From contig CAVZJB010000009.1 in NCBI GenBank assembly GCA_963775425.1, forward strand, positions 16,616-80,615: a DNA stretch of 64,000 bases, given 5' to 3'. The notes beneath the pieces are model-generated. The model saw only the letters and a program-made list of their open reading frames with translations. It had not been told where the DNA came from and searched no databases. Shown here piece after piece: positions 52-50,155 of this stretch. The position numbers and the translations under genes were made by a program. The DNA is from an uncultured delta proteobacterium. Lineage in GTDB: Bacteria; Myxococcota; UBA727; VGSZ01. The number at the start of each line of letters is the position of its first letter. Position 1 is the stretch's first letter.

Positions 52-83
52 GCCGACGAACAACAACAAAGAAGGAGGTGTGT

Positions 84-1385: not shown

Positions 1386-1388
1386 CGG

Positions 1389-4869: not shown

Positions 4870-4938
4870 GTATCCGGCCGGCGAACTGCGTCGTGACACC
4901 GGGCCTCGCCGCGCGTACCGCGCGCGCGGAGGTGATGC

Positions 4939-5654: not shown

Positions 5655-5662
5655 ATCATGGC

Positions 5663-15364: not shown

Positions 15365-15365
15365 G

Positions 15366-18300: not shown

Positions 18301-18525
18301 GATCTGGTTCTTGAAACCACAGATGGCTTCGTCGTCATCGACCACAAGAGCTATCCGAACCCGGGCGGAGCTGAAGAGCACGCACGAGCCTTTGCAGGGC
18401 AACTCCACGCTTACGCCGGTGGCATTGAAGCCGCGCGGAAGCGACCCACCCTCGCCACTCTCGTGCACTTCCCCGTCGCCGGTCTCATGGTGCCGGTCGG
18501 CCTCGCGGCCGTGGTGGCTCCATGA
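15366..18525 (+). CDS. AddA-like UvrD/PcrA superfamily-1 helicase with C-terminal RecB-type nuclease; carries an apparent 1-bp frameshift near 15860
   Basis: Walker A ASAGSGKTT, motif III VLVDEFQDTSPIQ, motif IV GDQKQAIYGFRG, C-terminal FVVIDHKSY; two overlapping track ORFs (15366..15947 and 15433..18525) have to be joined; stop overlaps the brxA ATG (ATGA). Confidence 0.65.
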
Positions 18526-19157
18526 GGACCACTCCATCGACGTCGTCCAAGAAGGGGCCGGTCTACAGCGCCGACATCACCAAAGGCGCGTTGATGATCC
18601 CCGAGAGCCGCGTCGTCGCCAACGTCTTGCTGCAGTCGCCGCAGCTCTCGTCCGCAGAGTGGGAGGCGCAGGTTGTGCGGGAGAACATGTTGCAGAAGCG
18701 AAGCCCGGTGACAGCGCGCAGCCGCGCACGCTACCTGCGCGCCCGACTCTCGGTGGGCCCCGCGACGTTGCTTCCGCTGTTGGCGCGGGGCGATACTGAG
18801 CTCGCTGCACAAGCCGCCATGGCGCTTGCCATCAAACACAGCCGCCTCCTCGGCGACTACCTCGACCAGGTCGTGAGGCTTCAGCGGCTTCGCCAGCAAC
18901 CCTCGCTCGTCGCGAAGGATTGGGCCGCCTTCCTCGACAACGCGGAAGGCTACGCGCCCGAAGTGCATGCATGGAGCACCTCCACCCGGCAGAAGCTGGG
19001 GCAGGTTGTACACCAGGCGATGAGCGAGGCGGGCTATCTCGCCGACACGAAGTCCAAGCGCCTGCAACCCGTTCGAGTGCGCGCCGAGATCAGGCGTGTG
19101 CTCGACGATGCGCGAGAGGAATACGTGCTGCGATGTCTGGGGGTTGCGGAAGCATGA
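18522..19157 (+). CDS. brxA: BREX protein BrxA (DUF1819)
   Basis: ~210 aa, position first in the BREX set, conserved SAEWEAQVVRENMLQKRS…RARYLRARL pattern; stop overlaps the brxB ATG. Confidence 0.75.
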   Translation: MRTTPSTSSKKGPVYSADITKGALMIPESRVVANVLLQSPQLSSAEWEAQVVRENMLQKRSPVTARSRARYLRARLSVGPATLLPLLARGDTELAAQAAMALAIKHSRLLGDYLDQVVRLQRLRQQPSLVAKDWAAFLDNAEGYAPEVHAWSTSTRQKLGQVVHQAMSEAGYLADTKSKRLQPVRVRAEIRRVLDDAREEYVLRCLGVAEA

Positions 19158-19735
19158 CGAACGACGACAACTTTCAGGAGCGACTGGACGCGGTGCTGCC
19201 ACGACTCCGTTCCAAGGACTTTCTCGAGTCCACGGGCCTCGGGAACGAGATCGCGTTCTACGTCTTCGACTACCCGCCAGTTCACGAGCTGAAGGTGCGA
19301 GATGAGATCGCTTCTGTTGTGAAGAAGCTCGCCGGAGACAAGCCGCCCATCAAAGTCCGCCACATCAACTTGTTCGATGTCCTCGTCGATCACCTCAAGG
19401 AGCGTGGTTTCCTCGACAAGGTGTTCGAGATGCAACGCACCAAAGGGGACGACGCGGTGCTGTCGCCCCTCAAGGGCCCGCTCGATGCCAAACGCTTTGC
19501 CGACGTCGTCGTGGCGGCAGCGAAGCCGAGCGAAGTCGACCTTGTGCTCGTGTCAGGAGTTGGCGGGGTTTACCCGCTGATCCGCACGCACCAACTCTTG
19601 AACAACCTTCATCCGCTGGTCCCGCACACGCCAATGGTCTTCTTTTATCCCGGCGACTACGACGGCAAGCACTTCCGGCTCTTCGGGAAGCTTCAAAACG
19701 ACAACTACTACCGTGCCTTCAAGCTCGTGAGCTGA
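19154..19735 (+). CDS. brxB: BREX protein BrxB (DUF1788)
   Basis: MTNDDNFQERLDAVLPRLRSKDFLESTGLGNEIAFYVFDYPP…FRLFGKLQNDNYYRAF; position second in the set. Confidence 0.75.
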   Translation: MTNDDNFQERLDAVLPRLRSKDFLESTGLGNEIAFYVFDYPPVHELKVRDEIASVVKKLAGDKPPIKVRHINLFDVLVDHLKERGFLDKVFEMQRTKGDDAVLSPLKGPLDAKRFADVVVAAAKPSEVDLVLVSGVGGVYPLIRTHQLLNNLHPLVPHTPMVFFYPGDYDGKHFRLFGKLQNDNYYRAFKLVS

Positions 19736-19746
19736 GTGGGGAATTC

Positions 19747-22700
19747 GTGAAAATCCAGGCGCTATTTCTGAAACAACTCGACAGACCCATCAACGGCGTC
19801 GTTAAGGCCGAGCAGGTCGCCAACGAAGTCGTCTGGAACGAGCTCGACGAGTACCACGTCACGAAGGAGCTCGACGGTCACCTGCGGAAGTTCCTCGAGG
19901 CGTACACCGCCTCGATCAACTCCCCGACCGACAACATGGGCGTCTGGATTTCGGGCTTCTTCGGATCCGGCAAGTCGCACTTCCTGAAGATCCTCTCGTA
20001 CTTGCTTGCTCGGCGCTCGGCGACGCATCCGCAGTCAGGCATCGCCAGGGATGCTGTCGAGTTCTTCAACACGAAGATCGGGCCGAAGGCTGGCGCCAAA
20101 GGCGATCCGGCGCTCTTCTCCGATGTGCTCACTGCGACATCCAAGCCGACCGACGTGCTCCTCTTCAACATCGATGCGAAGGCTGATGCGAAGTGGGGTC
20201 GCGACGCTGTGCTCCAGGTCTTCGTGCGTGTCTTGAACGAGCGCCAGGGTTTCTCCAGCGACCATCCGCACATCGCCTACATGGAGCGCTACCTGCAGAA
20301 GCAAGGGAAGCTCGACGCTTTCCACGCCGAGTTTCAAAAGCGCGCCGGTAGCGCATGGGTCGCAGAGCGCGATGCCTGGCACTTCCATGAGGACGCGCTG
20401 CGTGGGGCGCTCGCCCTTGCGCTTGGGAAGGACGAAGCGGCGACCAAGGCGTGGTTCGACAAGGCTGAGCAGGACTCGGTTGTCACGGTGGAGAAGTTGG
20501 CGGCGCAGGTGAAGGAGTACCTGGCGACAAAGGGACCGGATCAGCGCGTCGTCTTCTGCGCCGACGAGGTCGGCCAGTTCATCGGCAACGACACACACCT
20601 GATGCTCAACCTGCAGACGGTCGCCGAGCACCTCGGCACCGCGTGCCAGGGGCGCGCCTGGGTCATCGTGACTTCTCAAGAGGACATTGACGCCGTGCTC
20701 GGGCAGTTCCGGGCGGTCAAAGAGAACGACTTCTCGAAGATCCAGGGCCGCTTCAAGACGCGCCTGTCGCTTTCAAGCTCCAACACCGATGAGGTCATCG
20801 GTGCGCGTCTGCTCGAGAAGACAACCGACGCAGTCAAGGAGCTAACGAAGGTCTTCGCGGAGAAGGGCGACATCCTCAAGAACCAGGTGTCGTTCTCATC
20901 GACGAAGAAGAAGTTCCAGAACTACACCGACCCGCAGAGCTTCATCACCGCGTATCCGTTCGCCCCGTACCACTTCGAGCTGGTGCAGAAGATCTTCGAG
21001 TCGATCCGAAAAGCAGGCGCGACCGGCGTGCACCTCGCTCAGGGCGAGCGCTCGATGCTCGACGCCTTCCAATCCGCGGCGCTGGCCATCAAAGACCGTG
21101 AGGTGGGCGCTCTCGTCGCGATCCACCGCTTCTATCCTGCCATCGAGAGCTTCCTCGACACCACGGTCAAGCGGACCATCGACCAGGCCAAAGAAAACCC
21201 GGCGATCAAGGCGTTCCCCGAAGACGTCGAGCTTCTCCGTGCACTGTTTCTCATTCGCTACGTCGACGTGCTCAAGGGAACGGTCGATAACCTCGTCACG
21301 TTGAGTCTCGAGGAAATCGACCAAGACCGGATCGCCCTGAAGAAGAAGATCGAGGCGAGCCTCGAGCGACTTGAGGGCCAGAACCTCATCTCGCGGAGCG
21401 GTGATACGTACAGCTTCCTTACGAGCGAGGAGCAGGATGTCGGCCGCGAGATCAAGAACCAGGAGATTTCCCCAAGCGACGAACAGAGGAAGCTCGCTGA
21501 GCTCATCTACGCGGACGTCCTCAAGGGGCAGGTCAAGCACACGTTCAAGGACAACAAGGTCGACTATAAGCTCACCCGCTACTGCGACGGCCAGCTCACC
21601 GGAAACAAGAAGGACGAAGACCTTGCTGTTTCCGTCGTGACGCCGCTGCACGACACCTACGAAGCGTTCAACCCGGCGCTCTGTGTCACACAGTCGACCG
21701 AGCATGGGGGACAGCTGCTCGTAAAGCTCAGCGACAACCCCCAGTTGCTTCGCGAGTTGAAGCAGTACTTGAAGACCGACAAATACGTCCGCTTCAAGAC
21801 GGACGAGAGCAACCCGGAAACGCTCAAGCGCATTCTTCGCGACCGGGCCGATGAGAACCGCGAGCGTGACGCGCGTCTGCGCGAGATGGTGGAGGTGTTG
21901 CTATCAACCGCGGACTTCTTCGCCGCCGGCAACTCGCTTAAGCCCAAGAGCACCAACGTCGCCGCACAGTTCGCCGAAGGCTTCGACTACCTGGTCCGCA
22001 ACACGTTCAACAAGATGGTGCTGCTCTCGCACCCAAGCAAGGACGCGAGTGCTGCGCAGGCGGAGACGGCGGCTGTTCTCGCAGCAAGCGACACGCACCA
22101 GCAGGCGCTCGGCCTTGGTCTCGAGGCGCCCAACGGCAAGGCGCTTCAAGACCTGCTGCAGTACGTGAAGCTCAGCTCGAGCAACAACCACAAGGTGATC
22201 CTTGAGGACCTGGTCTCGCGTTACGAGCGTCGTCCGTATGGCTGGCCCACGTACGATGTCGTGCTGCTGCTGGCGCGGCTGTTCGTCGCTGGGGAAATCA
22301 CCCTGCTTCTCGATGGGCAGGCGATGGCCCCGGCAGACGCCAAAGACCCGCTCGCCAAGCGCGCAAACTGGAGCAAGGTCACGGTGCGCAAGCGCGCGAC
22401 CACCACCGGCGATGTGCTCAAGAAAGCCCGCGAGCTCGGCAAGAAGCTCTTCGACACCACGGGTCCCGACGGCGAGCAGGAGCTCTCAACGTTCTTGCAC
22501 GAGCGCTTTGCCGACTGGCGATCGGACCTGCAGAAGATCGCGCCACTCTTCGCTGGCGGAAAGTACCCGGGCGAAACAGTCGTCGTTGACGGCCTGCACC
22601 GCATTGAAGCGTTGGTTCACCTGGTTGAGCCCACAGAGTTCCTTGGCACTCTCGTAGCAGACGGTGCTTCGTGGCTCGCCTTCAACGACAAGCGCCAAGA

Positions 22701-23337
22701 CCTTGAGCAGTTCTTCAAGACCCAGCGCCCCACCTGGGATGACCTGCGCCTTGCCGTCGACAGCACCTACAAAGCCAACCTGCACGCGCTTCTCCACCGC
22801 GCTTCGGCGAAGGCGGCCTTCACTTCCATCGGCGAGCTGCTCGCGCTTGCCGAGCCCTACGGGAAGTTGCACACGGCCGCCGCCCTGCTCGCGACCCTGA
22901 AGACGGAGAACGAGGCGCTGCTCGCGGATGTGCGTCCGTCAGCTGTGGCGGCCATCGAGGGCTACGTCGGTCAGCTGAAGGCTGCCATCGAGCAGGCCGA
23001 GAAGACGCGCGGGACAAGCGCCACGGCCGAGCTGCAGAACGGCTGGCTTCATCCGCTGCAAGGTCACCTGAAGACCGCGCAGACCTCCAAAGAGCTGCCC
23101 ACCATCGCCGATGCGCAGCAGCGTGCTGAGGAGGCGCGCAACGACGCCCTGGATGACATCGAGCAGTGGGCGAATCCAAAGGTCCCGAAGCCGCAGCGAC
23201 CAATCCACACCGTGACGGTGTCTTCGCTCGTCAAGACGCCCTACCTCGAGAATGAGAGGGACGTCGACGCGTTTCTGAGCGCCTTGAAGGATGAGCTTCT
23301 CACCATGGTGGCAACGCACCGCATCCGCATCAAGTGA
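19747..23337 (+). CDS. brxC: BREX ATPase BrxC/PglY (1196 aa, P-loop)
   Basis: Walker A GFFGSGKSHFLK, size and position typical of BrxC; intact ORF with GTG start. Confidence 0.85.
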   Translation: MKIQALFLKQLDRPINGVVKAEQVANEVVWNELDEYHVTKELDGHLRKFLEAYTASINSPTDNMGVWISGFFGSGKSHFLKILSYLLARRSATHPQSGIARDAVEFFNTKIGPKAGAKGDPALFSDVLTATSKPTDVLLFNIDAKADAKWGRDAVLQVFVRVLNERQGFSSDHPHIAYMERYLQKQGKLDAFHAEFQKRAGSAWVAERDAWHFHEDALRGALALALGKDEAATKAWFDKAEQDSVVTVEKLAAQVKEYLATKGPDQRVVFCADEVGQFIGNDTHLMLNLQTVAEHLGTACQGRAWVIVTSQEDIDAVLGQFRAVKENDFSKIQGRFKTRLSLSSSNTDEVIGARLLEKTTDAVKELTKVFAEKGDILKNQVSFSSTKKKFQNYTDPQSFITAYPFAPYHFELVQKIFESIRKAGATGVHLAQGERSMLDAFQSAALAIKDREVGALVAIHRFYPAIESFLDTTVKRTIDQAKENPAIKAFPEDVELLRALFLIRYVDVLKGTVDNLVTLSLEEIDQDRIALKKKIEASLERLEGQNLISRSGDTYSFLTSEEQDVGREIKNQEISPSDEQRKLAELIYADVLKGQVKHTFKDNKVDYKLTRYCDGQLTGNKKDEDLAVSVVTPLHDTYEAFNPALCVTQSTEHGGQLLVKLSDNPQLLRELKQYLKTDKYVRFKTDESNPETLKRILRDRADENRERDARLREMVEVLLSTADFFAAGNSLKPKSTNVAAQFAEGFDYLVRNTFNKMVLLSHPSKDASAAQAETAAVLAASDTHQQALGLGLEAPNGKALQDLLQYVKLSSSNNHKVILEDLVSRYERRPYGWPTYDVVLLLARLFVAGEITLLLDGQAMAPADAKDPLAKRANWSKVTVRKRATTTGDVLKKARELGKKLFDTTGPDGEQELSTFLHERFADWRSDLQKIAPLFAGGKYPGETVVVDGLHRIEALVHLVEPTEFLGTLVADGASWLAFNDKRQDLEQFFKTQRPTWDDLRLAVDSTYKANLHALLHRASAKAAFTSIGELLALAEPYGKLHTAAALLATLKTENEALLADVRPSAVAAIEGYVGQLKAAIEQAEKTRGTSATAELQNGWLHPLQGHLKTAQTSKELPTIADAQQRAEEARNDALDDIEQWANPKVPKPQRPIHTVTVSSLVKTPYLENERDVDAFLSALKDELLTMVATHRIRIK

Positions 23338-23449
23338 ATGCCGCAACTTCAGCGAGTTCTAGGCGGAGCTCATCGACGAAATCTGGACCCACGGAAGGCT
23401 GCATGACCTCAGGCAACACCACCCACGAACCCTGCAATCGAATGGTCGG

Positions 23450-26400
23450 GTGCACGCTGCGCCGACACCACCCTGGAAACTGTCAGGTCGCGGCCGCGAA
23501 TCCGGTCGGGCTACGCTCGGGGGCGGGGGACAGCGTGCGGAGTCCCTGAACAAGGCCAAGCTCAAAGCCTTCGCGCCCAAGGCGCGTCGAGACCTCATCC
23601 GGGCCGTCACCGACCGCGCCCAGAAGCTCGGCATCACGAAGGATGGTGCGTCCGACGTCGTCATCCAAGGCGACTCGGCGATCATCATGGGTCAGCCGTA
23701 CCCACGGAAGACGGGCGAGATGCGCGAGGCGCTCCGCCAGCGCATCGGACAGCAAGGCTTCTCGCAGGTCATCGAGGCGGCTGCATACACGTGGTTCAAT
23801 CGCTTCATGGCGCTGCGCTACATGGAAGTGCACGGCTACCTCGACCACGGCTTCCGCGTGCTGTCGGACCCCGAGTCCACAGACACCGGCGCGCTGCCGC
23901 AGATTTTGGGCGAGGCTGAGAACGTCGAATTGCCTGGGCTCAATCGCGAGCTCGTCGTTGAGCTCAAGCTGGCGGGCAACAAGGACGCGGAGCTGTACCG
24001 GAGGCTGGTGCTCGCGCAGTGCGAGGCGCTGCACGCGGCGATGCCATTCCTTTTTGAGCCCATCGACGACGACACCGAACTGTTGCTGCCCGACAACTTG
24101 TTGCACTCGGATTCGATCGTTCGTGGACTTGTGAACGACATCGACGAGGAGGATTGGCAGGAGGTCGAGGTCGTTGGCTGGCTCTACCAGTTCTACATCG
24201 CGGAGAGGAAAGACGAGGTCATCGGCAGCGTGATCAAGAGCGAGGATATTCCCGCCGCGACGCAGCTCTTCACGCCCAACTGGATCGTCCAGTATCCTCG
24301 TTCAGAACAGCGTGGGTCGGCTTTGGCGGCTGGCGAACCCATCGTCGACTCTGTCGCAACAATGGCCGTACTTCATCGACCTGCGAAGCAGACGCCCGAG
24401 GTGCAGGAGCGACTCGACGCCCTGATTAAGTCGCGCATCGTTCAAGACGGCGAAAGCTTGAACCCAGAATCGATCACCATCCTCGATCCAGCGTGCGGCT
24501 CGGGCCACATACTCGTCGTCGCCTACGACGTCCTCAAGGCCATCTACCTCGAGCGTGGATATCAGCCCCGCGAAATTCCGCGCCTGATCCTCGAGAAGGA
24601 ACCTCTTCGGACTCGACATCGACGACCGCGCCGCGCAACTTTCGTCTTTTGCGCTCTGCATGAAGGGCCGTGCGGATGATCGACAGCTCTTCAGCAAGCC
24701 GCCGATTCTAAATGTCCTGCCGATTGCGGACACCGAAGGGCTACGGCTCGACAACCTGGCAACCGACCTCGTGCCGCTCGGCGTTCCCTTTGCTCACCTG
24801 AGCGCTCTCCTCGAGGTGTTCAAACCCGCAAAGACGCGGGGATCGCTTATTCAGATCCCCGAGGAACTGCGCACCGCGTTGCCGTCGATCGCCGTCACGC
24901 TGGAGGCTGCCGGTGCGGCCATGGCCACCCCCGAGGCCCAACTTCAACGTGCGAAAGTCGCGCTACTTGTTCGGCAAGCAAGCATCCTCTCGATGAAGGT
25001 AGACAACGTCATCGCGAACCCGCCGTACATGAACAGGAAGTACCTGAACAACGATCTCGATGCCTTTCTGAAGACGCAATATACCGCCACGCAAATCGAC
25101 CTGTACGCGGCATTTATCATCCGTTCCACTGTATTTGCAAAGGCGACAGGTTTTGTGTCGATGATTGCAATGGATAGTTGGATGTTCGGGCAGGACTTCA
25201 CGTCGACGCGAGCTTCCGTGAACGAGCGCCTCACCCCAATCACGGTGGCACATCTCGGAGCCAGGGCGTTCGAGGAAGTGCCTGGTGAGGTTGTGCAAAC
25301 CGCGGCGTTCTCGTCATATCGGGGGCCGGTGGGCGACTTCATTGGCACCTACTACCGTCTAACAAAAGCGAGTTCGTCCGAGGAAAAGCGGGAGCTGCTA
25401 CTGGCTCGCTCGAACTGCTATCGATCCCGGCTTACAGACTTTTCTCTCTTTCCGCGATGCGCCATGATCTACTACGCCAGTGAACGCACGAAGGAAGCGT
25501 TTAGAAATGGCATTACGCTCGGTGATTTTGCCGACGTCGCGACTGGACTTCAGACCGGTAACAATCCTCGCTTTATCAAGTACTGGTTCGAGGTGAGCCG
25601 CGAGATGATCCAGCGGGAGGCGAAGTCTTGTGCGCACGCCGAGCAGATCGGCGGACGTTGGTTTCCCTATGTCAAAGGGAGTGAATACCGGAAATGGTAT
25701 GGCAGCCAGCTCTGCATTCTCGACTGGCGCGATGACGGACGAGAAATACGACATCACCCATCAAGTGCGGTGCGCAATCCAGACTTCTATTTTCGTCCAG
25801 GGATTGCATACAACAACATCTCAAAGGTCTTTTGTGCGCGTGCGGTCGATGCCGGGGCAATCTTCGATCAGAAGAATTCTATGATTTTTCCTCGGAACGA
25901 CGAGGACCGAGCCGGGATCCTTGGCTTCTTGCATAGTTCCGTCGTGTCCCCCCTCCTTGAGGTGGTCGCGCAAAAGGACTTCAACCCGGGCGCGCTACGG
26001 GAGATCCCTCTCGACGGATCCCTCCTCTCCTCCAAGACGGTGGCCACGGCGGTGAACCGACTCGTTCAACTCGCACGGCAGAACTGGGATGCGTTCGAGC
26101 AGTCGTGGGACTTTTCTGGTCATCCAATAGCTTCGTTTCCGTCGACGCGTCTATCGGAAAGCTGGGCGGCATGGCGCGACGCCAATGCCAATGACGCGGC
26201 GCACGCGAAGCAGACTGGAGGATGAAGTCGATCGCGCCTGCATCGAAGCCTACGGGCTCCAAGCGGAACTCTCTGCTGACGTCCCCGAGGAGCAGATTAC
26301 GCTGGTTCGCGCCGATCGTGAAAGGACTGCCAACGCCTCATCTCCTACGCAGTCGGATGCATGATGGGGCGCTACTGTCTCGATGAGCTAGGGTTGATCT

Positions 26401-27071
26401 ATGCAAATGCTAGCAACATTGGCTTCCAGCCAACCCGCTACAAGACCTTCCCGGCCGATACCGACGGCATCATTCCCATTACCGATGCACTCTGGTTCGA
26501 CGACGACGCCGCAAAACGGGTTCGCGAGTTCTTGCATGCCATCTGGGGCGCTGAAAACCTCGACGAAAACATGAAGTGGCTCGCCGAGAGTCTCGGCACC
26601 AAAGCCACTGAGCTTCCCGAGGAGACGATCCGTCGGTATTTGAGTGACAAGTTTTTCAAGGACCATCTGCAGACCTACAAAAAGCGTCCGATCTACTGGC
26701 TGTTTTCGAGCGGAAAGGAGAAGGCGTTCGAGTGCCTCGTCTACCTGCACCGCTACAACGAATCGACACTCTCCCGAATGCGCGCCGACTACGTCATCCC
26801 GCTGCAGGGAAAGCTCGCGTCCCGCGCCAAACTTCTTGAGACCGAGGAGAAGCAGGCGACGTCGACGGCCCAGAAGCGCAAGCTCCAGAAGGAGCTCGTG
26901 GACGTCGAGAAGAAGGTTGTCGAGATCCGAAAGTTCGACGAGCTGCTCAAGCATCATGCCGACCAACGCATCACGCTCGACCTCGATGCCGGCGTGAACG
27001 TCAACTACGGCAAGTTCGGCGACCTGCTCGCGATGGTCGACAAGGTCTGCGGCGAGAAGGAAGAGGAGTAG
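23450..27071 (+). pseudogene. pglX: BREX adenine-specific DNA methyltransferase PglX (BrxX), split by at least 5 single-base frameshifts
   Basis: Conserved blocks found in three different frames: FTPNWIVQY|LVQNSVGRLW…PYFIDL|…ILDPACGSGH…LILEK|NLFGLDIDDRAAQLS…NPPYMNRK…|IEAYGLQ…|ISYAVGCMMGRYCLD…RPIYWLFSSGK…DAGVNVNYGKFGD; indels sit at CC/GG runs (e.g. cagtatCctcgtt, gagaaGgaacc). Confidence 0.8.
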
Positions 27072-27075
27072 CGGC

Positions 27076-29794
27076 GTGGACACCCAGCAGCTCGTCACCG
27101 GGCTCCGTCAGAAGTTTGAAACCGAGGGCCATCGCATTGTGTTCTGGCACGACGATGCGAAGGCGTTTGAGCTCGAGCTTGCCGAGTTGCCGCTCGCAAG
27201 CCTCGCCGGTGGCGTCACGCTGCTTCGCCTCAGCGACATCGGTGCGCTCGAGGCCAAGGTCCGACTCGAGCGTGCAGAGCCGCAAACGCGCTTCCTCGTC
27301 TACTCCGGGTCCCGCCAGCCCGAGCCCGAACACGACTGGCTGCTCGACATCCGCCTCTACAGCGGCACGTTCAGCGCCAATCGCGCGGCGATGTTGTTGA
27401 GCGAGCTTGGCCTCATCACGCTCTCGCTCAAGGAGCATATCGAGAAGCGCATCGCGTTCTTCGGGAGCCCGCAGCGTGTGGTGGAGCTGAAGAAGCTCGT
27501 CGACCAGAGCGACACCGCAGACTCCCTCGACCTAAAGATGATCGCAGTGCTCGCCCGTGCGCAGAAGGCAGACATCGATCCGATTCTCATCGCGCTGCTC
27601 CATGCTGCCGTGTCCTCCGGCGGCAAGAAGGGCGCGCTCATCTCGAGCGAAGGCGCCGCTTCCGCGTCGGAGCTGGCGTTGGGCGCGGCGCCAGCTGTGG
27701 CCGACCCCGTCGTGGAGCTTGAGAAGCACGGCTTGAGTGCTGCCTTTTGGAGCCGAGTCAAGGCGCACACCGGGTTCGACGATCCATCGCCGTCGCTGAA
27801 GAAGTTGGCGACGCGCATGATGGTGTCTGAGTTCGGGCGCTCGCTGAAGGGCGCGGACCTGCCATCGACGTTGAAGCCGCTGCTCTTGCCCGACGGCAAC
27901 CACACCGCCGCCGTTCGCGTCTGCCTGTCGACGTGGCGTGACAGCGGAGCCTTTCATCAGAGCTACGACATCTGGAGCCGGCGCATCGAGCGCGAGCAGG
28001 AGTTGCCGACCAAGTTGTCTGGGTTCACCCGCCAGCAGCTTGCGACCGCGGGGACCTTCGCCATCAGTGAGAAGCTCACCCTGGCGGCGCTGATGAACGA
28101 GCTCGTCGTGGCCTTCGACCCTGACCAGCCGTTTGACCTGCACGGCTACCAGAAGGCCATCAGCGACCGTCGAACCGGCCATTGGGTGACGGACAAGCTG
28201 CCCGACGCAGAGAAGGTGAAGCGCTCGGCCTTCGCCAATGCCTACCGCGCCCTCGAAGCCGTGGCCGACCTCGTGGGCCTCCGCCGGGCGCACGCAGACG
28301 GGTTCTCGTTCGCGACTGTCGAGGCCATGTGGTCCGCGTACACCACCGACCTCCATCGGTTTGACGGTGGCTACCGACGCTTTCAAGAGGCCGCCGCCGG
28401 CGTGGCGGACACCGGAGCCGATGTTTTGAAGCCGCTAGCGACCAAGGTGGAGGCGCTCTACACGGACTGGTTTCTCCCTGAGCTGGTGAAGGCTTGGATG
28501 CCGTTCGTCGAGGAATCGGCCGGACCTGGTCGCCCGAAGTTGCTCGGGACCTGGCAAATCAAAGACGTCCCAGTGCAGATCGATTTCTATGCGCGCAACG
28601 TCGCCCCGATCCTGCAGGACAAGACCGGACCCAAGCGCGTCTTTGTCATCATCAGCGACGCGCTTCGCTACGAAGTCGCGCAGGAAATCACGAAAGAGCT
28701 GAACGGCACGTACCGGTTCAAAGCTGCGCTGAGCTCTCAGCTCGGGGTTCTCCCCAGCTACACCGACCTCGGCATGGCCGCGCTGCTCCCTCACCAGAAG
28801 CTCGCGTTTGACGAGGGCGGCGACGTGCGGGTCGACGGCAAGCGCCGACAGTCGCTCGAGTTGCAGTCCACCATTCTCGAGACCGTTCACGGCGCGGCTT
28901 TCAACGCCGATGACCTGCTCAAGAAGTCGAAGGAAGATGCGCGCAAGGCCGTGAACGGGTTCCCAGTCGTCTACATCTACGACGGTGGCATCGACGCGGT
29001 CGGTGACAAAGCTGCGACCGAACACCTGACCTGCCTCACGGCACGCGACACCATCAACAAGATCGTGCGGCTGGTGGCCGACATCGTGAACAAGATGAAC
29101 GGTAGCTACATCATCGTCACCGCCGACCACGGCTTTCTATTTCAGGCCGACAAACAAACCGACCTCGACAAGAGCGCGCTCGACGAGAAGTCGGCCGGCG
29201 CGTTCGATCGCGAAGAAGCGCTACGTCATCGGCAGCGACCTCAAGCCTTCAAGCGGGGCCCTCCATGGGAACACCCAGGCGACGGCGGGAATCGAGGGGG
29301 GACCCGAGTTTCTGGTCCCGTACGGCACGCAGCTCTTTCATCTCGCGGGCGGCGCACGCTTCGTCCACGGCGGCTCGATGCTCCAAGAGATCGTCGTTCC
29401 GGTCATCACCGTCAAAGAGCTCGAAGGCAAGAAGGCCAGCGAGGCCAGACCAGAGCCCGTCAAGATCCAGGTGCTCAAGGGACCCCACAGCTTCGTCATG
29501 AACACGCGGAAGTTCGAGCTTCTCCAGATGGAAGCGGTCGCGGGCAAGGTCGTCGCCGCGCGCATCAGCGTCGGCGTGTTCGATGACCAGCAGCTCATCT
29601 CGGACTCCAAGGAGGTGCTCTTCGACAGCACCTCGCAGAGCCAGGAGGAGCGCACCAAAACGGTCGAGCTCACGGTCAAGGGCGACACGTTCGCGAAGAA
29701 GGAATACCGCCTCGTCCTGAAGAACCTCGACACACTCCAGGTGCAGGACTACCCCGTCACCATCAACATCACGTTCTCGAAGATCGACTTCTGA
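27076..29794 (+). CDS. pglZ: BREX alkaline-phosphatase-superfamily protein PglZ (BrxZ); 1-bp frameshift near 29215
   Basis: N-terminal RIVFWHDDAKAFELELAELP…, C-terminal tail …KKRYVIGSDL…FLVPYGTQLFHLAGGARFVHGGSMLQEIVVPVI lies in the ORF 29378..29794 frame; GTG start after a GAAGGAAGAGGAG SD. Confidence 0.8.
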
Positions 29795-29806
29795 GGTGGA
29801 GCGCAC

Positions 29807-31862
29807 ATGACAACCGGCAGCGTTCCCACCACCGCAGACACCGAGCTCGATGCGCTTCTGAAGGAGCACTTCGCAGGCAAGATCGTGCGCAAGGCTCTGA
29901 CCAAGCTCGTGAAGGAGGGCGCAAACGTTCCGATCTACGTGCTCGAGTACCTCCTCGGCATGAACTGCTCGTCGAACGACGAGGCAGTCAACGACCTCGG
30001 GCTGAGCGTCGTCAAGGGCATCCTCTCAGACAACTACGTCCGGCCCGACGAGGCTGAGAAGATCAAGTCCAAGATCCGCGAGAAGGGCTCCTACAAGGTC
30101 ATCGATCGCGTCACCGTCCGCCTCAACGAGAAACGCGACACCTACGAGGCCACGCTCTCGAACCTCGGCATCAAAGGCGTCGAGGTCCCGGCGAGCACGG
30201 TCAAGGAGTTCGAGAAGCTCCTCGCGGGCGGAATCTGGAGCGTCATCTCGCTCCAATACTTCTACGAGGAGGGCCAGAAGGGGTCACCGTTCAGCATCTC
30301 TTCGCTCCGGCCCATCCAGACTGCCGAACATGGACATGGAGGGTCTGTTTGCCGGCCGTGGTCACTTCACGACGGCGCAGTGGATCGACGCCTTGGTGCG
30401 GTCCTCAGGCATGGAGCCCTCCGTGCTCGATGAAAACGTCAAGTGGCACTTGCTCGCCCGCATGGTCCCGTTCGTCGAGAACAACTACAACATGGTGGAG
30501 CTCGGCCCGCGCGGTACCGGCAAGAGCCACATCTACAAAGAGATCTCGCCGAACAGCATTCTCGTCTCGGGTGGCCAGACCACCGTCGCAAACCTGTTCT
30601 ACAACATGGGCACGAGCACCATTGGCCTCGTCGGGCTCTGGGATGTCGTGGCATTCGACGAGGTCGCCGGGATCCACTTCAAGGAGAACGACGGCGTCCA
30701 GATCATGAAGGACTTCATGGCCTCAGGCTCGTTCAGCCGTGGTCGTGCACCCGTCGCCGCGTCGGCGTCGATGGTCTTCGTCGGCAACATCGACGGCAGC
30801 ATCGAAACGCTCGTGAAGACGAGCCATCTGCTCGCCCCCTTCCCCGAGGAGATGATCGACTCAGCCTTCTTCGATCGCATGCACGCCTACCTGCCTGGCT
30901 GGGAAATTCCGAAGATGCGGCCGGAGTTCTTCACGAACCAATACGGTTTCATCGTCGACTACCTCGCCGAATTTATGCGCGAGATGCGCAAGCGCAGTTT
31001 CGCTGACGCGATCGACAAGTACTTCCGCCTCGGCCGCGACTTGAACCAGCGGGACACGATTGCGGTTCGTCGCACTGTGTCGGGCCTGCTCAAGCTGGTG
31101 CATCCCAACGAGAAATACGACAAGGAAGACGTCCGCAAGGCTCTGGAGTACGCGCTGCAAGTCCGGCGTCGCGTCAAAGAGCAGCTCAAGAAGATCGGCG
31201 GGATGGAGTTCTACGACGTCCACTTCAGTTACCTCGACATCGAGAGCGGCGAGGAGCGATTCATCTCGGTGAACGAGCAGGGTGGCGGTTCCCTCATCCC
31301 TGAGAGCCCCGCGAAGCCGGGCGTGCTCTACACGGTCGCACGGGGTTCCGGCGGAATGCTCGGGCTCTACCGACTCGAGCTACAGGTCACAGCGGGGTCG
31401 GGAAAGCTGACGTTGTCCGGCTTCGGCTCGAACACGGCGTCGAAGGAATCAGTCAAGGTCGGCTTCGACTTTTTCAAGGCCAACGCGAGCCGTGTGAGCG
31501 CTTCGATGAAGCCCGGGGATCACGATTTTCACCTCCACATCGTCGAACTGCACAACACCGGTCCAACGACCTCGTTGACGTTGCCCGCGGTGCTCGCGTT
31601 TTCGAGCGCGATGCTTATGAAGCCGATCCTCGGCCAGATGGTTGTGCTCGGCGACATGAGCCTCGGTGGAAGCGTCAAGAAGGCCGAAGACCTTGCGAGC
31701 TCGCTCCAGGTCGCCTTCGATGCTGGCGCGAAGCGGGTCTTGATGCCGATGGCAAGCGTCGGGGACATCCCGACCGTGCCCGGTGAGCTATTCGCGAAGT
31801 TCCAGACGAGCTTCTATGCGGACGCCGTCGATGCGGCGTTCAAGGCTCTTGGCGTCGCGTGA
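29807..31862 (+). CDS. brxL: BREX Lon-like protease BrxL; 1-bp frameshift near 30330
   Basis: N-terminal …GKIVRKALTKLVKEGANVPIYVLEYLLGM…NYVRPDEAEKIKSKIREKGSYKVID… then MDMEGLFAGRGHFTTAQWIDALVRSSGMEPSVLDENVKWHLLARMVPFVENNY…GPRGTGKSH in the next frame. Confidence 0.8.
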
Positions 31863-31926
31863 CCTGGCACTCAGCGTTGTCACGCGCAGTTCGGGCTCAT
31901 CGCGGCCACTACCTGGGGAGCGCACA

Positions 31927-34026
31927 ATGAAAGCGACCGAAGCGAAGCTTCTCGAGTTCCTCAAGAAGTCGCCACAGTTCCTGATCCCGATCTACCAGCG
32001 CACCTACAGCTGGACGGAGAAGGAGTGCCGCCAGCTTTGGGATGACGTCCTGCGCGCGGGGCGGCGTGACGACGTGAACGCGCACTTCGTCGGCTCCATC
32101 GTCTACGTCGAGAAAGGTCTCTACAACGTCTCGAGTCAATCGCCGTTGCTCGTCATCGACGGGCAACAGCGCCTGACCACGATCTCGGTGCTCATCGAGG
32201 CACTTGCGCGAACGCTGGGCAACACCGAACCTCTCGAGGGATTCTCGGCGAAGAAGCTGCGCAACTACTACCTCCTGAACCCGCTCGAGGAGGGCGAGCG
32301 TCGCTACAAGCTCGTGCTCTCCCAGACCGACAGGACCTCACTCATCGCGCTCCTCGATCAGGCGCCCGCGCCGAAAGAGGTGTCGGTCCGCATCGACGCG
32401 AACTTCAAGCTCTTCACCGAGTGGCTGGAAGGAGCAAAGGATGAGCTACCCGCGGTCTGCAAGGGGCTCGCGAAGCTGGTGGTCGTGGACATCAGTCTGA
32501 ACCGGGACCACGACAACCCTCAGCTCATCTTCGAGAGCCTCAACTCCACCGGCAAGGAGCTGAGCCAAGCCGATCTCATCCGCAACTTCATCCTCATGGG
32601 GCTCGAGCCTCAACTCCAGACCCGGCTCTACGAGCAGTACTGGCGGCCGATGGAGGTCGACTTCGGTCAGGAGGGTTACGCGACGCACTTCGACAGCTTC
32701 ATGCGCCACTACTTGACGGTAAAGACCGGCGAGATCCCGAACGTCCGCGAGGTCTACGACGCGTTCAAGAGCTACGCGCGCGCGCCCGGCGCAGCAACAG
32801 TCGAAGCCATCGTCGCCGACATCCGCGCCTTTGCCCGGTACTACTGCGCCATGGCACTCGCGGGCGCGGAGCCCGATGCGGACCTCAAGGAGGTCTTCCA
32901 CGACATCCGCGAGCTGAAGGTCGACGTCGCGTTTCCGTTCCTCCTCGACCTCTACAACGACTATTCGAAGCAGAGCCTCGCGAAGGCTGACTTGGTCAAG
33001 ATCGGGCGCCTCATCGAGAGCTACGTGTTCCGTCGCGCAGTGTGCGCCATCCCGACGAACTCGATGAACAAGACCTTCGCGCAGTTCACGAAGACCGTGA
33101 AGAAGGACCGCTACCTCGAAAGTGTGCAGGCCGCGTTCCTGCTTCTCCCCTCGTACCGGCGGTTCCCGAACGACGATGAGTTCAAGCGGGATCTGCGAGC
33201 GAAGGATCTCTACAACTTCCGCAGCCGCAGCTACTGGCTCCGGCGGCTCGAGAACCACGACCGTAAAGAGCGAGTCCCGGTCGATGAGTACACGATCGAG
33301 CACATCCTTCCGCAGAACCAGAACCTGTCTGACAAGTGGCGCGCCGACCTCGGTGCCGATTGGGCCGCCGTGCAGGAGAAGTACCTGCACACGCTCGGGA
33401 ACCTCACGCTCACCGGCTACAACTCCGAGCTGAGCGACCGGCCTTTCCTCGAGAAACGCGACATGAAGGGCGGCTTCGCCGACAGCCCGCTCCGCGTGAA
33501 CCAAGGACTCGGCAAGCTCGACTTCTGGAACGAAGTCACCATCCAGCAGCGCGCGGAAAAATTGGCCGCGACAGCAGCCACGGTGTGGGCGGCTCCCAAG
33601 CTCGAGGCGGCGGTCCTCGATGGTTACAAGCCAAAGCCCGTCGCCGCTGTCGGCTACACGATCGACGATCACCCGCAGCTGGCGCCTGGTCCGATGCGGA
33701 CCCTCTTCGAGGCGTTCAGCAAGGAAGTGCTCGCACTCGATCCGTGCGTCAGGCTGGAGTTCCTGAAGCTGTACGTCGCGTTCAAGGCCGAGACGAACTT
33801 CGTGGACGTGATCCCGCAAGCGAAGCGGCTGCTCCTCTCGTTGAACGTGAGCATCGGCGACATCAACGACCCGAAGGGCGCTTGCAGGGACGTCTCAGGG
33901 CTCGGACGCTGGGGGAACGGTGACGTCGAGGCGGAGCTCAAGACGCCTGCCGAGTTGCCGTACATCATGGGCCTCGTGCGGCAGGCGCTCGAGAAGCAGC
34001 TTGGCGAGGGGAGCGACGGGGAGTGA
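31927..34026 (+). CDS. GmrSD-family type IV (modification-dependent) restriction endonuclease, BrxU-like (DUF262 ParB-like NTPase + DUF1524 His-Me nuclease)
   Basis: DUF262 motifs IPIYQRTYSW and DGQQRLTTI; DUF1524 motif EHILPQN…W…LGNLTLTGYN; SD GGGGAG before the ATG. Confidence 0.8.
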   Translation: MKATEAKLLEFLKKSPQFLIPIYQRTYSWTEKECRQLWDDVLRAGRRDDVNAHFVGSIVYVEKGLYNVSSQSPLLVIDGQQRLTTISVLIEALARTLGNTEPLEGFSAKKLRNYYLLNPLEEGERRYKLVLSQTDRTSLIALLDQAPAPKEVSVRIDANFKLFTEWLEGAKDELPAVCKGLAKLVVVDISLNRDHDNPQLIFESLNSTGKELSQADLIRNFILMGLEPQLQTRLYEQYWRPMEVDFGQEGYATHFDSFMRHYLTVKTGEIPNVREVYDAFKSYARAPGAATVEAIVADIRAFARYYCAMALAGAEPDADLKEVFHDIRELKVDVAFPFLLDLYNDYSKQSLAKADLVKIGRLIESYVFRRAVCAIPTNSMNKTFAQFTKTVKKDRYLESVQAAFLLLPSYRRFPNDDEFKRDLRAKDLYNFRSRSYWLRRLENHDRKERVPVDEYTIEHILPQNQNLSDKWRADLGADWAAVQEKYLHTLGNLTLTGYNSELSDRPFLEKRDMKGGFADSPLRVNQGLGKLDFWNEVTIQQRAEKLAATAATVWAAPKLEAAVLDGYKPKPVAAVGYTIDDHPQLAPGPMRTLFEAFSKEVLALDPCVRLEFLKLYVAFKAETNFVDVIPQAKRLLLSLNVSIGDINDPKGACRDVSGLGRWGNGDVEAELKTPAELPYIMGLVRQALEKQLGEGSDGE

Positions 34027-34916
34027 CGAACGCCGGCGATTCGCCGAAGCAAGGCCCGCCGGTTGAGGCACTCGGTGCTCGCGGCATGGTCCGCGCCCAC
34101 AACCCCATCACGGTGTTCGCCGCACTGGGGCCCAACCCTGCTCCGCTTGCAGAGCTGATCTGGGGCCTCCACCGCCGTGGCCAGGTTGCCGGGGATCTCT
34201 TCTTGGTCGTGGACCCGCGAGGGCACGACTACTTGCATAGGGAGCTCTTGGGTTCGCATCTCGTCCTCGACGAGCTCCGGCAGTTGCTCAACATCGATCT
34301 TGGTCCGGAGAAGATCCACGAGCGCGTCGTTGAAGGTCCGGCAGGCACGGTCCTCGACGACGAAGACCCCACGCACGCCGAGCTCTACAACGCGGCGACC
34401 TGGGAGGTCGCGAGAGAGGCGACCGCGCACGCCGGGGCGCGCCCCGTCGTGTTCGGGCTCGCTGCTGGTCGCCGGCGCACGATGACGGCGATGTCAACGA
34501 TGGCGTTTCAGCTCCTCGCGCGGGAGCACGACACTTGCGTCGACGTCCGGGTCGACGACAAACGCGCCGAGGGCGGCTCCGGCTTCTACTTCCCTGACCA
34601 GCAACAGCAAACGCTGGTCTCAAAAGCCGGAGTCCCGTTCGTCGCCCGTGAGGTCGGCGTTCACCTTGTGGATGTCCACCTTCCCCGACTTCGATCGCTG
34701 CTACCGGATGAGGCCTTCGCGACGTACTCGTCCGCGCTCACCGCAGGGCAGAAGGCCGTCGACGCGGCCGTGCCGCCGAAGCTCGTCGTGGACCTCCCTC
34801 ACGAAGTTGTGCTCATAGATGGCCTTCCCCTGAAGCTCTCTGCTGCGGAGCTGCATTTGGTACGCCACGCTGGCGCTTGCTCGACGTCGAGGCGATGGAT
34901 GGGTTGCAGGCAATGA
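34023..34916 (+). CDS. CARF-domain protein with C-terminal wHTH-like region (Csa3-like ligand-sensing regulator), start uncertain (GTG overlapping the brxU stop)
   Basis: CARF signatures: β1 loop ITVFAALGPNPAPLAELIWGL and PVVFGLAAGRRRTMTAMSTMAFQLLA (D.TGG.K.MS-like); C-terminal …LSAAELHLVRHAG…; low-complexity tail suggests a possible further frameshift. Confidence 0.35.
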   Translation: MTNAGDSPKQGPPVEALGARGMVRAHNPITVFAALGPNPAPLAELIWGLHRRGQVAGDLFLVVDPRGHDYLHRELLGSHLVLDELRQLLNIDLGPEKIHERVVEGPAGTVLDDEDPTHAELYNAATWEVAREATAHAGARPVVFGLAAGRRRTMTAMSTMAFQLLAREHDTCVDVRVDDKRAEGGSGFYFPDQQQQTLVSKAGVPFVAREVGVHLVDVHLPRLRSLLPDEAFATYSSALTAGQKAVDAAVPPKLVVDLPHEVVLIDGLPLKLSAAELHLVRHAGACSTSRRWMGCRQ

Positions 34917-35339: not shown

Positions 35340-35672
35340 ATGACCATCAAGACCTCAGACAGCCACCCGCTCTACGCCACGACCATCGACGACTCCCAGC
35401 CGGGGCACGTGCTCCTCACCATGGCCCCCGGAAAGCAGTGCGCCGGCGCCTATGCCGGCGGCTTCTGGAAGCGCGATGTGCAGAAGGACCTCGACCAGCT
35501 CGTCTCCGCGTACAACGCCGGGATGCTCGTGTGCCTCCTGGAGGACCACGAGCTGAGCTCGCTCAAGATTCCGACGCTCATCGCGGAGGCTAGCAAGCGG
35601 AGTATGCGGCCGGCGAACCACGTCTGGACGCGAGCTGCGGCGACTGCCAGCGTGGGCGGGGGCGGCGTGTGA
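35340..35672 (+). pseudogene. N-terminal ~110 aa of a dual-specificity/KAP-type protein-phosphatase-like gene, truncated by IS21 insertion (no HCxxGxxR catalytic loop left)
   Basis: MTIKTSDSHPLYATTIDDSQPGHVLLTMAPGKQ…WKRDVQKDLDQL…MLVCLLEDHEL; ORF stops inside the IS21 terminal repeat (gtgTGAacg); SD AAGGAAG. Confidence 0.45.
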
Positions 35673-35798
35673 ACGGCGTCAACTACCTGTGCCGGGTGGC
35701 GACAACTACCTGTGCCGGTCGTTGCCAGGGTAAACGGCCTCCGCGGCGACCGCGCGGCAGCCAAGGTGAGCGCCTTCAGAACCGGTCGCGCGCCCATA

Positions 35799-38111: not shown

Positions 38112-38147
38112 GGGGCCGCCTCCGCGGCTCCTCAGCAGATCACGGGC

Positions 38148-50139: not shown

Positions 50140-50155
50140 GTAGGCGAAAGTTAAG

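What the first reader, a model, noticed from the sequence alone, without database searches (positions are those of the whole stretch)
18522..34026. Complete type-1 BREX gene set plus an embedded BrxU/GmrSD-like type IV restriction enzyme
brxA, brxB, brxC (Walker A GFFGSGKSH), pglX (N6-adenine MTase motifs DPACGSGH / NPPY), pglZ and brxL occur in canonical order. They are followed by a DUF262+DUF1524 GmrSD-family enzyme (DGQQR…EHILPQN) at the position where BrxU sits in some plasmid BREX loci. Together this gives a layered methylation-dependent/-independent barrier.
Basis: partly seen in the sequence, partly recalled or inferred. Interest (0 to 1): 0.5.

Follow-up and report, generated by a model that had tools for sequence, protein, structure and literature searches.

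The report
BREX-1 locus with frameshifted genes
This is an ordinary type 1 BREX phage-defence locus followed by a GmrSD-type restriction enzyme, but three of its six genes are broken by single-base indels that are most likely long-read assembly errors.

Summary

The set is not "complete" as written. pglX carries five ±1-nt frame breaks and has CTG where relatives have the start codon. pglZ and brxL carry one frame break each. brxA, brxB, brxC and the GmrSD gene are intact.

The breaks look like consensus errors of a long-read metagenome assembly:
- All are ±1 nt, and the repaired frames contain no stop codons.
- Similar breaks occur in unrelated genes of the window.
- The window's IS21 copy differs from another copy in assembly ERZ25039495 by one inserted base and no substitution.
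- A second pglX contig from that assembly lacks all five window breaks but has its own.
- Two breaks share the context CAG[A]CTG.

Real pseudogenisation remains possible (about 25%).

The GmrSD gene lies after brxL, not embedded. BrxU of pEFER sits between brxC and pglX. The protein resembles PADLOC "Orf5"/HEC-06 models, not BrxU.

Verdict: a new member of a known kind, of low interest.

The parts
18522..19157 (+). brxA (211 aa), intact. Its ATG overlaps the stop of the upstream AddA-like gene (ATGA).
   Evidence: PADLOC BrxA 1.7e-55 and Pfam PF08849 1e-43. No frame break against the L001 BrxA.
19154..19735 (+). brxB (193 aa), intact. Its ATG overlaps the brxA stop.
   Evidence: PADLOC BrxB 6.7e-69 and Pfam PF08747. 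Start checked. No frame break.
19747..23337 (+). brxC (1196 aa), intact P-loop ATPase. Walker A GFFGSGKSH at 19954-19980.
   Evidence: PADLOC BrxC 1293 bits over the full length. NCBIfam NF033441 1160 bits against a cutoff of 400. No frame break.
23546..27071 (+). pglX (about 1176 codons when repaired), BREX-1 N6-adenine methyltransferase. It has five frame-breaking indels: +1 nt near 24294-24296, -1 nt at 24378/9, +1 nt at 24598/9, +1 A at 26214 (CAG[A]CTG), -1 nt at 26323/4. It has CTG at the position of the relatives' start codon; the nearest in-frame start is GTG at 23450.
   Evidence: Three-frame reading. Ungapped tblastn frames. Frameshift-aware alignment to the L001 PglX: 57% identity, full length, no in-frame stop. 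Nucleotide alignment to L006 pins each indel. Repaired protein scores 1300 bits on NF033452 against a cutoff of 500.
27076..29794 (+). pglZ (about 905 codons when repaired), BREX-1 PglZ type A. One +1-nt frame break near 29209 (GAT[C]GCG).
   Evidence: PADLOC PglZ covers only profile positions 1-662 of 855 in the ORF frame. The rest is in the next frame. Repaired protein scores 722 bits on TIGR02687 against a cutoff of 270.
29807..31862 (+). brxL (about 684 codons when repaired), Lon-like BREX protein. One +1-nt frame break at about 30320 (CAG[A]CTG at 30317-30323).
   Evidence: PADLOC BrxL profile positions 5-169 lie in one ORF and 170-679 in the next. Alignment to the L001 BrxL gives 71% identity. 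Repaired protein scores 1129 bits on TIGR02653 against a cutoff of 628.
31927..34026 (+). GmrSD-family type IV restriction enzyme candidate (699 aa), intact. Domains are DUF262 (YQRTYSW, DGQQR, FESLNSTG), DUF1524 (EHILPQN ... GNLTL) and a C-terminal DUF5655. A GGAG lies 7 nt upstream of the ATG.
   Evidence: Pfam PF03235 2.7e-34, PF07510 1.4e-26, PF18899 8e-10. PADLOC Orf5 9e-195 and HEC-06 2e-65. Motif coordinates.

Best explanation
The region is a horizontally acquired type 1 BREX operon, brxA-brxB-brxC-pglX-pglZ-brxL, with a HEC-06-like GmrSD-family type IV restriction gene appended after brxL. It lies in an integrase/tRNA-Pro-associated, IS-rich island of a high-GC genome. The source is a 394-kb metagenome-derived contig; the closest named relatives of its ParB are 'Deltaproteobacteria bacterium' MAGs.

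Expected mode of action (inferred from the families, not shown here). PglX N6-methylates adenine in a non-palindromic 6-bp motif on host DNA. BrxA/B/C, PglZ and BrxL block replication of incoming DNA that lacks the mark. The GmrSD-like enzyme uses its DUF262 NTPase (DGQQR) and DUF1524 HNH nuclease (EHILP) to cut phage DNA carrying modified bases. That would cover phages which escape methylation-based discrimination.

The seven single-base indels that break pglX (5), pglZ (1) and brxL (1) are most likely consensus errors of a long-read metagenome assembly. The errors are concentrated in pglX, where a second, about 90% identical allele is present in assembly ERZ25039495. If so, the real locus is probably an intact, ordinary BREX-1 system.
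For: Identity of the system:
- PADLOC, Pfam and NCBIfam hits lie far above cutoffs for all six genes and are specific for BREX-1.
- The repaired PglX aligns end to end with thousands of intact PglX proteins at 50-57% identity.
- The closest locus, L001, has the same order.

Indels as artefacts:
(a) All seven are ±1 nt. The repaired frames contain no stop codon and keep all catalytic motifs.
(b) The same kind of break occurs in unrelated genes of the window: the AddA-like gene near 15873, IS21 istB at 36377, a ParB-like gene near 39032 and an FHA gene near 53345.
(c) The window's IS21 copy (2549 bp) differs from copy L002 in ENA assembly ERZ25039495 by 0 substitutions and 1 inserted base, which is the istB frameshift. 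Copy L004 has different single-base insertions.
(d) Contig_20113 of that assembly (L006) carries a second pglX allele. It lacks all five window breaks and has its own at other sites. In the 1.65-kb stretch where the two are near-identical there are 4 substitutions against 4 indel events.
(e) The 7-mer CAGACTG occurs only twice on the + strand of the window, and both occurrences are frameshift sites (CAGCTG plus an A). Two other breaks are GATC to GAATC. This points to a context-dependent error.
(f) Contig names of the form contig_N suggest a Flye-type long-read assembler. This is my inference.
Against: - The break density is not uniform. There are 5 in 3.5 kb of pglX against 4 in about 19.7 kb of other genes checked with homologues. 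By my arithmetic the Poisson P is about 1e-3.
- None lie in brxC (3.6 kb) or the GmrSD gene (2.1 kb).
- pglX is known to be the BREX gene most prone to real inactivation or phase variation (PMC11341690).
- None of the sites is a long homopolymer, which is the commonest context for long-read errors.
- The sequencing platform and read support could not be checked.
- A diverged allele (L006) being intact at the window's sites is also expected if the window's lesions are real.
- The pglX start position reads CTG.
Confidence: 0.65

Rival explanations
1. The frameshifts are real. The BREX module is decaying: pglX was hit first and most, then pglZ and brxL. This host therefore neither methylates a BREX motif nor excludes phage by BREX. 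The intact brxA, brxB, brxC and the GmrSD-like enzyme persist, and the latter is the only working barrier in the locus.
For: - Seven frame breaks, plus a CTG at the expected pglX start, are concentrated in the three downstream BREX genes. There are none in brxABC or the GmrSD gene.
- The surrounding island is full of IS elements and other broken genes.
- pglX is the usual target of inactivation in BREX/Pgl systems (PMC11341690).
- Logan contig L005 ends exactly at the istB variant site. This suggests both variants exist among the reads.
Against: - There is no nonsense substitution, no larger deletion and no loss of catalytic motifs in about 2760 repaired codons.
- Indel-only differences separate otherwise identical IS21 copies.
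- The indel-to-substitution ratio is about 1:1 in the near-identical pglX segment.
- The other allele, L006, is riddled with independent ±1 indels as well.
- The insertion context CAG[A]CTG recurs.
Confidence: 0.25
2. The pglX breaks reflect programmed phase variation (an ON/OFF switch of BREX), as described for Streptomyces coelicolor Pgl and other pglX genes.
For: pglX is the hotspot with 5 of the 7 BREX breaks. [quoted passage not shown]
Against: - None of the five sites lies in a homopolymer or short tandem repeat of 4 nt or more (contexts).
- The five breaks have a net shift of +1, so no single slippage event can restore the frame.
- pglZ, brxL and non-BREX genes carry the same kind of lesion.
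Confidence: 0.03
3. The pglX segment of the window is a chimeric or collapsed consensus of two co-occurring alleles. Neither the window nor contig_20113 would then represent a real haplotype across this gene.
For: L006 and the window are 10-15% diverged in both flanks but near-identical over 24650-26300. Indels cluster in this gene in both contigs.
Against: The repaired window PglX is a coherent full-length protein with 57% identity to an intact homologue over its whole length. The low-GC centre is compatible with a genuine shared target-recognition cassette. This rival overlaps the best explanation rather than excluding it.
Confidence: 0.07

Closest known systems
Type 1 BREX (E. coli HS, Salmonella and Acinetobacter systems; NCBIfam BREX-1 models)
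   Same: It has the same six genes in the same order. PglX is a gamma-class N6-adenine methyltransferase with GxG and NPPY motifs. BrxC carries a Walker A motif. PglZ is of type A. BrxL is Lon-like. All repaired proteins pass the BREX-1 equivalog or exception cutoffs.
   Different: - pglX, pglZ and brxL are frame-broken in the sequence as given.
- No BrxR/WYL regulator lies upstream, unlike L001. An AddB/AddA-like pair abuts brxA instead.
- The closest PglX is only 57% identical.
pEFER BREX plus BrxU defence island of Escherichia fergusonii (PMC8565348)
   Same: A BREX-1 locus is physically linked, on the same strand, to a single-polypeptide DUF262+DUF1524 GmrSD-family enzyme. The expected complementary targeting is unmodified versus modified phage DNA.
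   Different: [quoted passage not shown]
- There is no detectable pairwise sequence similarity to BrxU in the PDB search.
- The nuclease motif is EHILP rather than DHIYP.
- An extra C-terminal DUF5655 domain is present.
HEC-06 GmrSD-like defence protein (Payne et al., bioRxiv 10.1101/2024.01.29.577857) and the PADLOC 'Orf5' models
   Same: It gives full-length matches to PADLOC HEC-06 (8-559 of 562, 2e-65) and Orf5 (1-542 of 543, 9e-195). It has DGQQR and an E-H nuclease motif (EHILP here, EHICP in HEC-06), both shown to be essential in HEC-06.
   Different: HEC-06 was found embedded in Hma systems, not next to BREX. The window protein has an added DUF5655 tail. I could not determine which defence system the PADLOC name 'Orf5' refers to.
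Phase-variable or inactivated pglX genes (Streptomyces coelicolor Pgl; noted in PMC11341690)
   Same: pglX is the gene with the most frame disruptions.
   Different: There is no repeat tract at the sites. Multiple breaks are also present in other genes, and there is evidence for an assembly-wide indel problem.

Membership tests
BREX type 1 | All six core families are present (BrxA, BrxB, BrxC, PglX, PglZ, BrxL) | tested here: met
   PADLOC, Pfam and NCBIfam on repaired proteins.
BREX type 1 | Canonical order brxA-brxB-brxC-pglX-pglZ-brxL on one strand | tested here: met
   Coordinates. The order is the same as in L001.
BREX type 1 | Type-1-specific PglX, PglZ type A and BrxL (as opposed to types 2-6) | tested here: met
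   NF033452 scores 1300 bits against a cutoff of 500, whereas the BREX-5 and BREX-6 models fall below their cutoffs. TIGR02687 scores 722 against 270. TIGR02653 scores 1129 against 628.
BREX type 1 | PglX SAM-binding (GxG) and catalytic NPPY motifs; BrxC and BrxL P-loops | tested here: met
   DPACGSGH, NPPY, GFFGSGKSH and GPRGTGKSH were located.
BREX type 1 | Uninterrupted reading frames for all six genes | tested here: not met
   Five breaks in pglX, one in pglZ and one in brxL. The cause, artefact or mutation, is unresolved.
BREX type 1 | Host DNA carries m6A in a non-palindromic 6-bp motif, and unmethylated phage is excluded | not testable with these tools
   This needs the methylome of the source reads and phage assays.
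GmrSD family (type IV restriction) | N-terminal DUF262 with the DGQQR NTPase motif | tested here: met
   PF03235 at 2.7e-34. DGQQR lies at 32158-32172.
GmrSD family (type IV restriction) | C-terminal DUF1524 with the (D/E)H...N HNH-type nuclease motif | tested here: met
   PF07510 at 1.4e-26. EHILPQN lies at 33298-33318 and is followed by GNLTL...N.
GmrSD family (type IV restriction) | NTP-dependent cleavage of DNA with modified bases | not testable with these tools
   This needs biochemistry or phage assays.
BrxU subfamily (PADLOC HEC-05) | Significant sequence similarity to BrxU | tested here: not met
   phmmer against all PDB chains finds only 9jfl and SspE, and no BrxU even at E<=10. The best PADLOC models are Orf5 and HEC-06.
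BrxU subfamily (PADLOC HEC-05) | Gene embedded inside the BREX block (between brxC and pglX in pEFER) | tested here: not met
   Here the gene starts 64 nt after the brxL stop. The pEFER order is taken from PMC8565348.

The most novel reading that the evidence does not exclude
Two pglX alleles co-occur in one microbial community: the window and contig_20113 of ERZ25039495. They are 10-15% diverged in their N- and C-terminal parts but share a near-identical, lower-GC 1.65-kb centre. That centre corresponds to the methyltransferase core after motif I, the whole target-recognition domain and the spacer helices. If this is not an assembly chimera, it records a very recent exchange of a specificity cassette between diverged BREX loci. 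A related reading is that the window's BREX was truly and selectively inactivated in pglX, pglZ and brxL while brxABC and the GmrSD-like enzyme were kept.
Probability: 0.2. Interest if true: 0.4.

Novelty: new member of a known kind. Interest (0 to 1): 0.15.

Why it matters
Biologically it adds one more BREX-1 plus GmrSD-like defence island, from a poorly sampled high-GC lineage, to a pairing that has already been characterised.

The practical value is a caution. Motif-level reading called the set complete, while the deposited sequence would yield three pseudogenes or fragmented gene calls. Tools such as PADLOC or DefenseFinder could mis-score the system.

Whether the breaks are artefacts can be decided from the existing reads. 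The same reads could reveal the BREX methylation motif.

Tried and rejected
- An exact look-up of BrxC and ParB contigs found nothing on record.
- A genome-contig scan with BrxC gave no confirmed relative.
- Megablast of the whole locus against plasmids found only 71-76% brxL matches.
- My frameshift-aware aligner reported extra 'frameshifts' in the PglZ N-terminus (27688/27776), the BrxL N-terminus (29823) and the AddB-like gene (13814/13894). With the more distant homologue it also reported some in the AddA-like gene. I rejected these as artefacts. They fall in poorly conserved stretches, come in compensating pairs, and the native ORF is continuous there.
- I looked for an intact near-identical copy spanning the pglX junctions. 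Only the 90% allele L006 was found. No sibling clusters exist for the pglZ and brxL fragments.
- I considered the AddB/AddA-like pair as a BREX accessory. I rejected this because its homologues occur as a two-gene module without BREX in four other loci.
- I considered programmed frameshifting or phase variation. I rejected it because there are no repeat tracts and the five breaks have a net shift of +1.
- The promoter scan found nothing, and terminator-like sites were below the shuffled expectation.
- A literature search for the assembly and run accessions found nothing.
- I could not establish what the PADLOC label 'Orf5' stands for.
Full report
**What is at the coordinates.** The window is high-GC (0.65-0.78), with a dip to 0.57-0.64 across 18-34 kb. 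On the + strand, profile HMMs assign the following genes.
- BrxA, 18522-19157.
- BrxB, 19154-19735.
- BrxC, 19747-23337.
- Three consecutive ORFs that cover PglX profile positions 1-350, 371-897 and 948-1170.
- An ORF that covers only PglZ profile positions 1-662 of 855.
- Two ORFs that cover BrxL positions 5-169 and 170-679.
- A DUF262+DUF1524+DUF5655 protein, 31927-34026.

These assignments come from PADLOC and Pfam.

**The gene set is not intact as written.**
- Three-frame reading and ungapped tblastn with the closest intact PglX show that pglX changes frame five times.
- I fetched the closest complete BREX-1 locus, L001. It is a Logan contig carrying the protein that NCBI lists from Comamonadaceae bacterium PP-2. 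Its order is BrxR, BrxA, BrxB, BrxC, PglX, three inserted genes, PglZ, BrxL.
- I aligned its proteins to the window with a frameshift-aware dynamic programme.
- PglX aligns end to end at 57% identity with five ±1-nt breaks and no in-frame stop.
- PglZ has one break near 29209, and BrxL has one near 30320.
- BrxA, BrxB and BrxC have none.
- Extra 'breaks' reported in poorly conserved N-terminal stretches of PglZ and BrxL come in compensating pairs where the native ORF is continuous. I treat them as alignment artefacts.
- At the conserved start of pglX the window reads CTG. The related allele L006 has TTG preceded by GGAG, and L001 has ATG.
- After repair, the proteins pass the BREX-1-specific NCBIfam models by wide margins: PglX 1300 against 500, PglZ type A 722 against 270, BrxL 1129 against 628, BrxC 1160 against 400.
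- The repaired PglX covers 100% of thousands of intact homologues.

**Are the breaks real?** Several observations point to consensus errors of a long-read metagenome assembly.
- Source. The window's proteins are on record from a single 394,389-bp contig (NCBI/ENA). Its fragmented pglX, pglZ and brxL ORFs are the deposited gene calls.
- The same kind of lesion occurs outside BREX:
  - an AddA-like helicase-nuclease, +1 nt near 15873;
  - istB of an IS21 element;
  - a ParB-like gene, where deleting one T of GATTC at 39032 fuses two overlapping ORFs into a 584-aa frame;
  - an FHA-domain gene near 53345.
- IS21 copies:
  - The window's copy (35670-38218) is present in three further copies in ENA assembly ERZ25039495, on contigs named contig_N.
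  - Against L002 it shows 0 substitutions and one inserted A (GATC to GAATC) in 2549 bp. That insertion is the istB frameshift.
  - Copy L004 carries a different inserted base.
- Second pglX allele:
  - A junction-spanning search found contig_20113 of that assembly (L006, 4000 bp), a second pglX allele.
  - It lacks each of the five window breaks but has its own private ±1 indels where the window is in frame.
  - In the 1.65 kb where the two are near-identical (24650-26300) there are 4 substitutions against 4 indel events. That ratio is far higher than expected for natural divergence.
- Recurrent context. CAGACTG occurs only twice on the + strand of the window (26211 and 30317). Both occurrences are frameshift sites, CAGCTG with an added A, one in pglX and one in brxL. 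Two other breaks are GATC to GAATC. A recurrent context suggests a systematic error. It may arise at methylated palindromes, but that link is speculation.

**Against the artefact reading.** The breaks are unevenly spread. There are five in 3.5 kb of pglX against four in about 19.7 kb of other genes checked with homologues between 12.8 and 38.2 kb, and none in brxC or the GmrSD gene. By my own Poisson arithmetic P is about 1e-3. pglX is known to be the BREX gene most often switched off (PMC11341690). The co-occurrence of a second, about 90% identical allele covering exactly this gene offers a technical reason for a local hotspot, namely mixed reads during polishing. I cannot prove it. I put artefact at about 0.65-0.7, real decay at about 0.25 and phase variation at about 0.03. 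Phase variation is unlikely because there are no repeat tracts at any site and the five breaks have a net shift of +1.

**The GmrSD-like gene.**
- It is an intact 699-aa ORF with a GGAG 7 nt upstream.
- It starts 64 nt after the brxL stop.
- It has the DUF262 motifs YQRTYSW, DGQQR and FESLNSTG, the DUF1524 nuclease motif EHILPQN followed by GNLTL, and a C-terminal DUF5655.
- It is not embedded in the BREX block, and it is not at the BrxU position. In pEFER, brxU lies between brxC and pglX (PMC8565348).
- It is not BrxU-like by sequence. phmmer against all PDB chains returns only a DUF262 protein (9jfl, 2e-10) and SspE, with no BrxU even at E<=10.
- Its best PADLOC models are 'Orf5' (9e-195, full length) and HEC-06 (2e-65, full length).
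- HEC-06 is an experimentally validated GmrSD-like defence protein. It is reported as distinct from BrxU (which is HEC-05) and has essential DGQQR and EHICP motifs (bioRxiv 10.1101/2024.01.29.577857).
- Physical linkage of GmrSD-like genes to BREX, Hma and type I R-M loci is already described there.

**Surroundings.**
- Upstream, an AddB-like PD-(D/E)XK protein (12776-15364) and an AddA-like UvrD/PD-(D/E)XK protein (15366-18525) precede BREX. The stop of the second overlaps the brxA start (ATGA).
- Homologues of this pair occur as a two-gene module in unrelated contexts without BREX. I treat it as an independent neighbour.
- Downstream, a CARF/cas_NE0113-like ORF (34023-34916) overlaps the GmrSD stop. 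It matches PADLOC CARF5 at 1e-19 but falls below the NCBIfam cutoff.
- Next come an IS66 fragment and the IS21 element. The IS21 element is inserted into the 3' end of the ParB-like gene.
- A tyrosine integrase (48757-50139) abuts tRNA-Pro (50156-50232), and GC rises to 0.72-0.78 beyond about 54 kb. The BREX locus therefore sits in an integrative, IS-rich island.
- The closest BREX proteins are betaproteobacterial, which fits horizontal acquisition.

**Mechanism (inferred from the families, not shown here).** PglX marks self DNA by N6-adenine methylation of a non-palindromic hexamer. The other BREX proteins stop replication of unmarked DNA. The GmrSD-like enzyme would cut DNA with modified bases in an NTP-dependent manner. 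Together they would give the complementary coverage demonstrated for pEFER.

**Verdict.** This is a correctly recognised but ordinary BREX-1 plus GmrSD-like island, a new member of a known kind. The useful second-stage result is that three of the six genes are frame-broken in the sequence. The breaks are probably assembly errors, and the 'embedded/BrxU-position' analogy does not hold. Interest is low. The only mildly novel lead is the mosaic pair of pglX alleles that share an identical centre containing the target-recognition domain.

Noticed in passing
window 23534-27500 vs L006 (ena:ERZ25039495:contig_20113): A second pglX allele from metagenome assembly ERZ25039495 is mosaic relative to the window. 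Its flanks are 10-15% diverged, but the low-GC centre (24650-26300) is near-identical. That centre covers the methyltransferase core after motif I, the target-recognition domain and the spacer helices. This could be a recent cassette exchange or an assembly chimera.
   Followed up: partly
window 26211 and 30317; 36377 and 39032: Frameshifting insertions recur in the same contexts. CAGCTG becomes CAG[A]CTG twice, and these are the only two CAGACTG on the + strand. GATC becomes GA[A]TC in istB and probably in the ParB-like gene. Both original sequences are palindromes of the kind methyltransferases typically target, so methylation-linked basecalling errors are possible.
   Followed up: partly
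window 12776-18525 (+): An AddB-like PD-(D/E)XK protein (862 aa, C-terminal Cys cluster) and an AddA-like UvrD plus PD-(D/E)XK protein (about 1050 aa, +1 frameshift near 15873) lie directly upstream of BREX. The stop of the second overlaps the brxA start. Only 10 homologues of the AddB-like protein were found, and they are always paired with the helicase and never with BREX.
   Followed up: yes
window 34023-34916 (+): A CARF/cas_NE0113 (Csm6-type ring nuclease family)-like ORF starts within the GmrSD stop codon (GTGA). It matches PADLOC CARF5 at 1e-19 but is below the NCBIfam cutoff. Its C-terminus looks truncated or frameshifted. No CRISPR array or cas genes were seen nearby.
   Followed up: partly
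window 35670-38218 (-), and 35602-35669: An IS21-family element (istA intact, istB frameshifted) is inserted into the 3' end of a ParB-like gene. At least three further copies are identical apart from indels in ERZ25039495. The 68 bp just outside it match an IS66 transposase gene in L002 at 100%.
   Followed up: partly
window 48757-50232: A tyrosine integrase lies next to tRNA-Pro(TGG) on the opposite strand. An HTH_17 (excisionase-like) ORF lies upstream. GC rises from about 0.66 to 0.72-0.78 to the right of about 54 kb. This is probably the right-hand boundary of the island that carries the BREX locus.
   Followed up: partly
window 3-2540: A JAB plus ThiF/E1-like protein (PADLOC E1-E2 and BilD-like hits) lies next to a divergent HTH plus M78 peptidase protein (PADLOC PD-Lambda-2_B, 3e-32). 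This may be another defence module at the left edge of the window.
   Followed up: no
window 4936-7402 and 8313-10621: There is an IS66-family element (three frames, transposase 5243-7402). There is also a transposon-like pair on the minus strand: an rve integrase (490 aa) and an AAA_22 ATPase.
   Followed up: no
window 52440-53544 (-): A two-FHA-domain gene upstream of an ECF sigma factor gene is split by a +1 frameshift near 53345, next to GATCTCGAAG. This gene has a host-like GC3 of about 0.95, so the indel problem is not confined to the foreign BREX DNA.
   Followed up: partly
window 55200-62100: In this region of 75-78% GC, very long ORFs overlap on both strands (2290 aa on the minus strand; 1322 and 1293 aa on the plus strand). 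The true coding strand was not resolved. The composition HMM favours the + strand.
   Followed up: no
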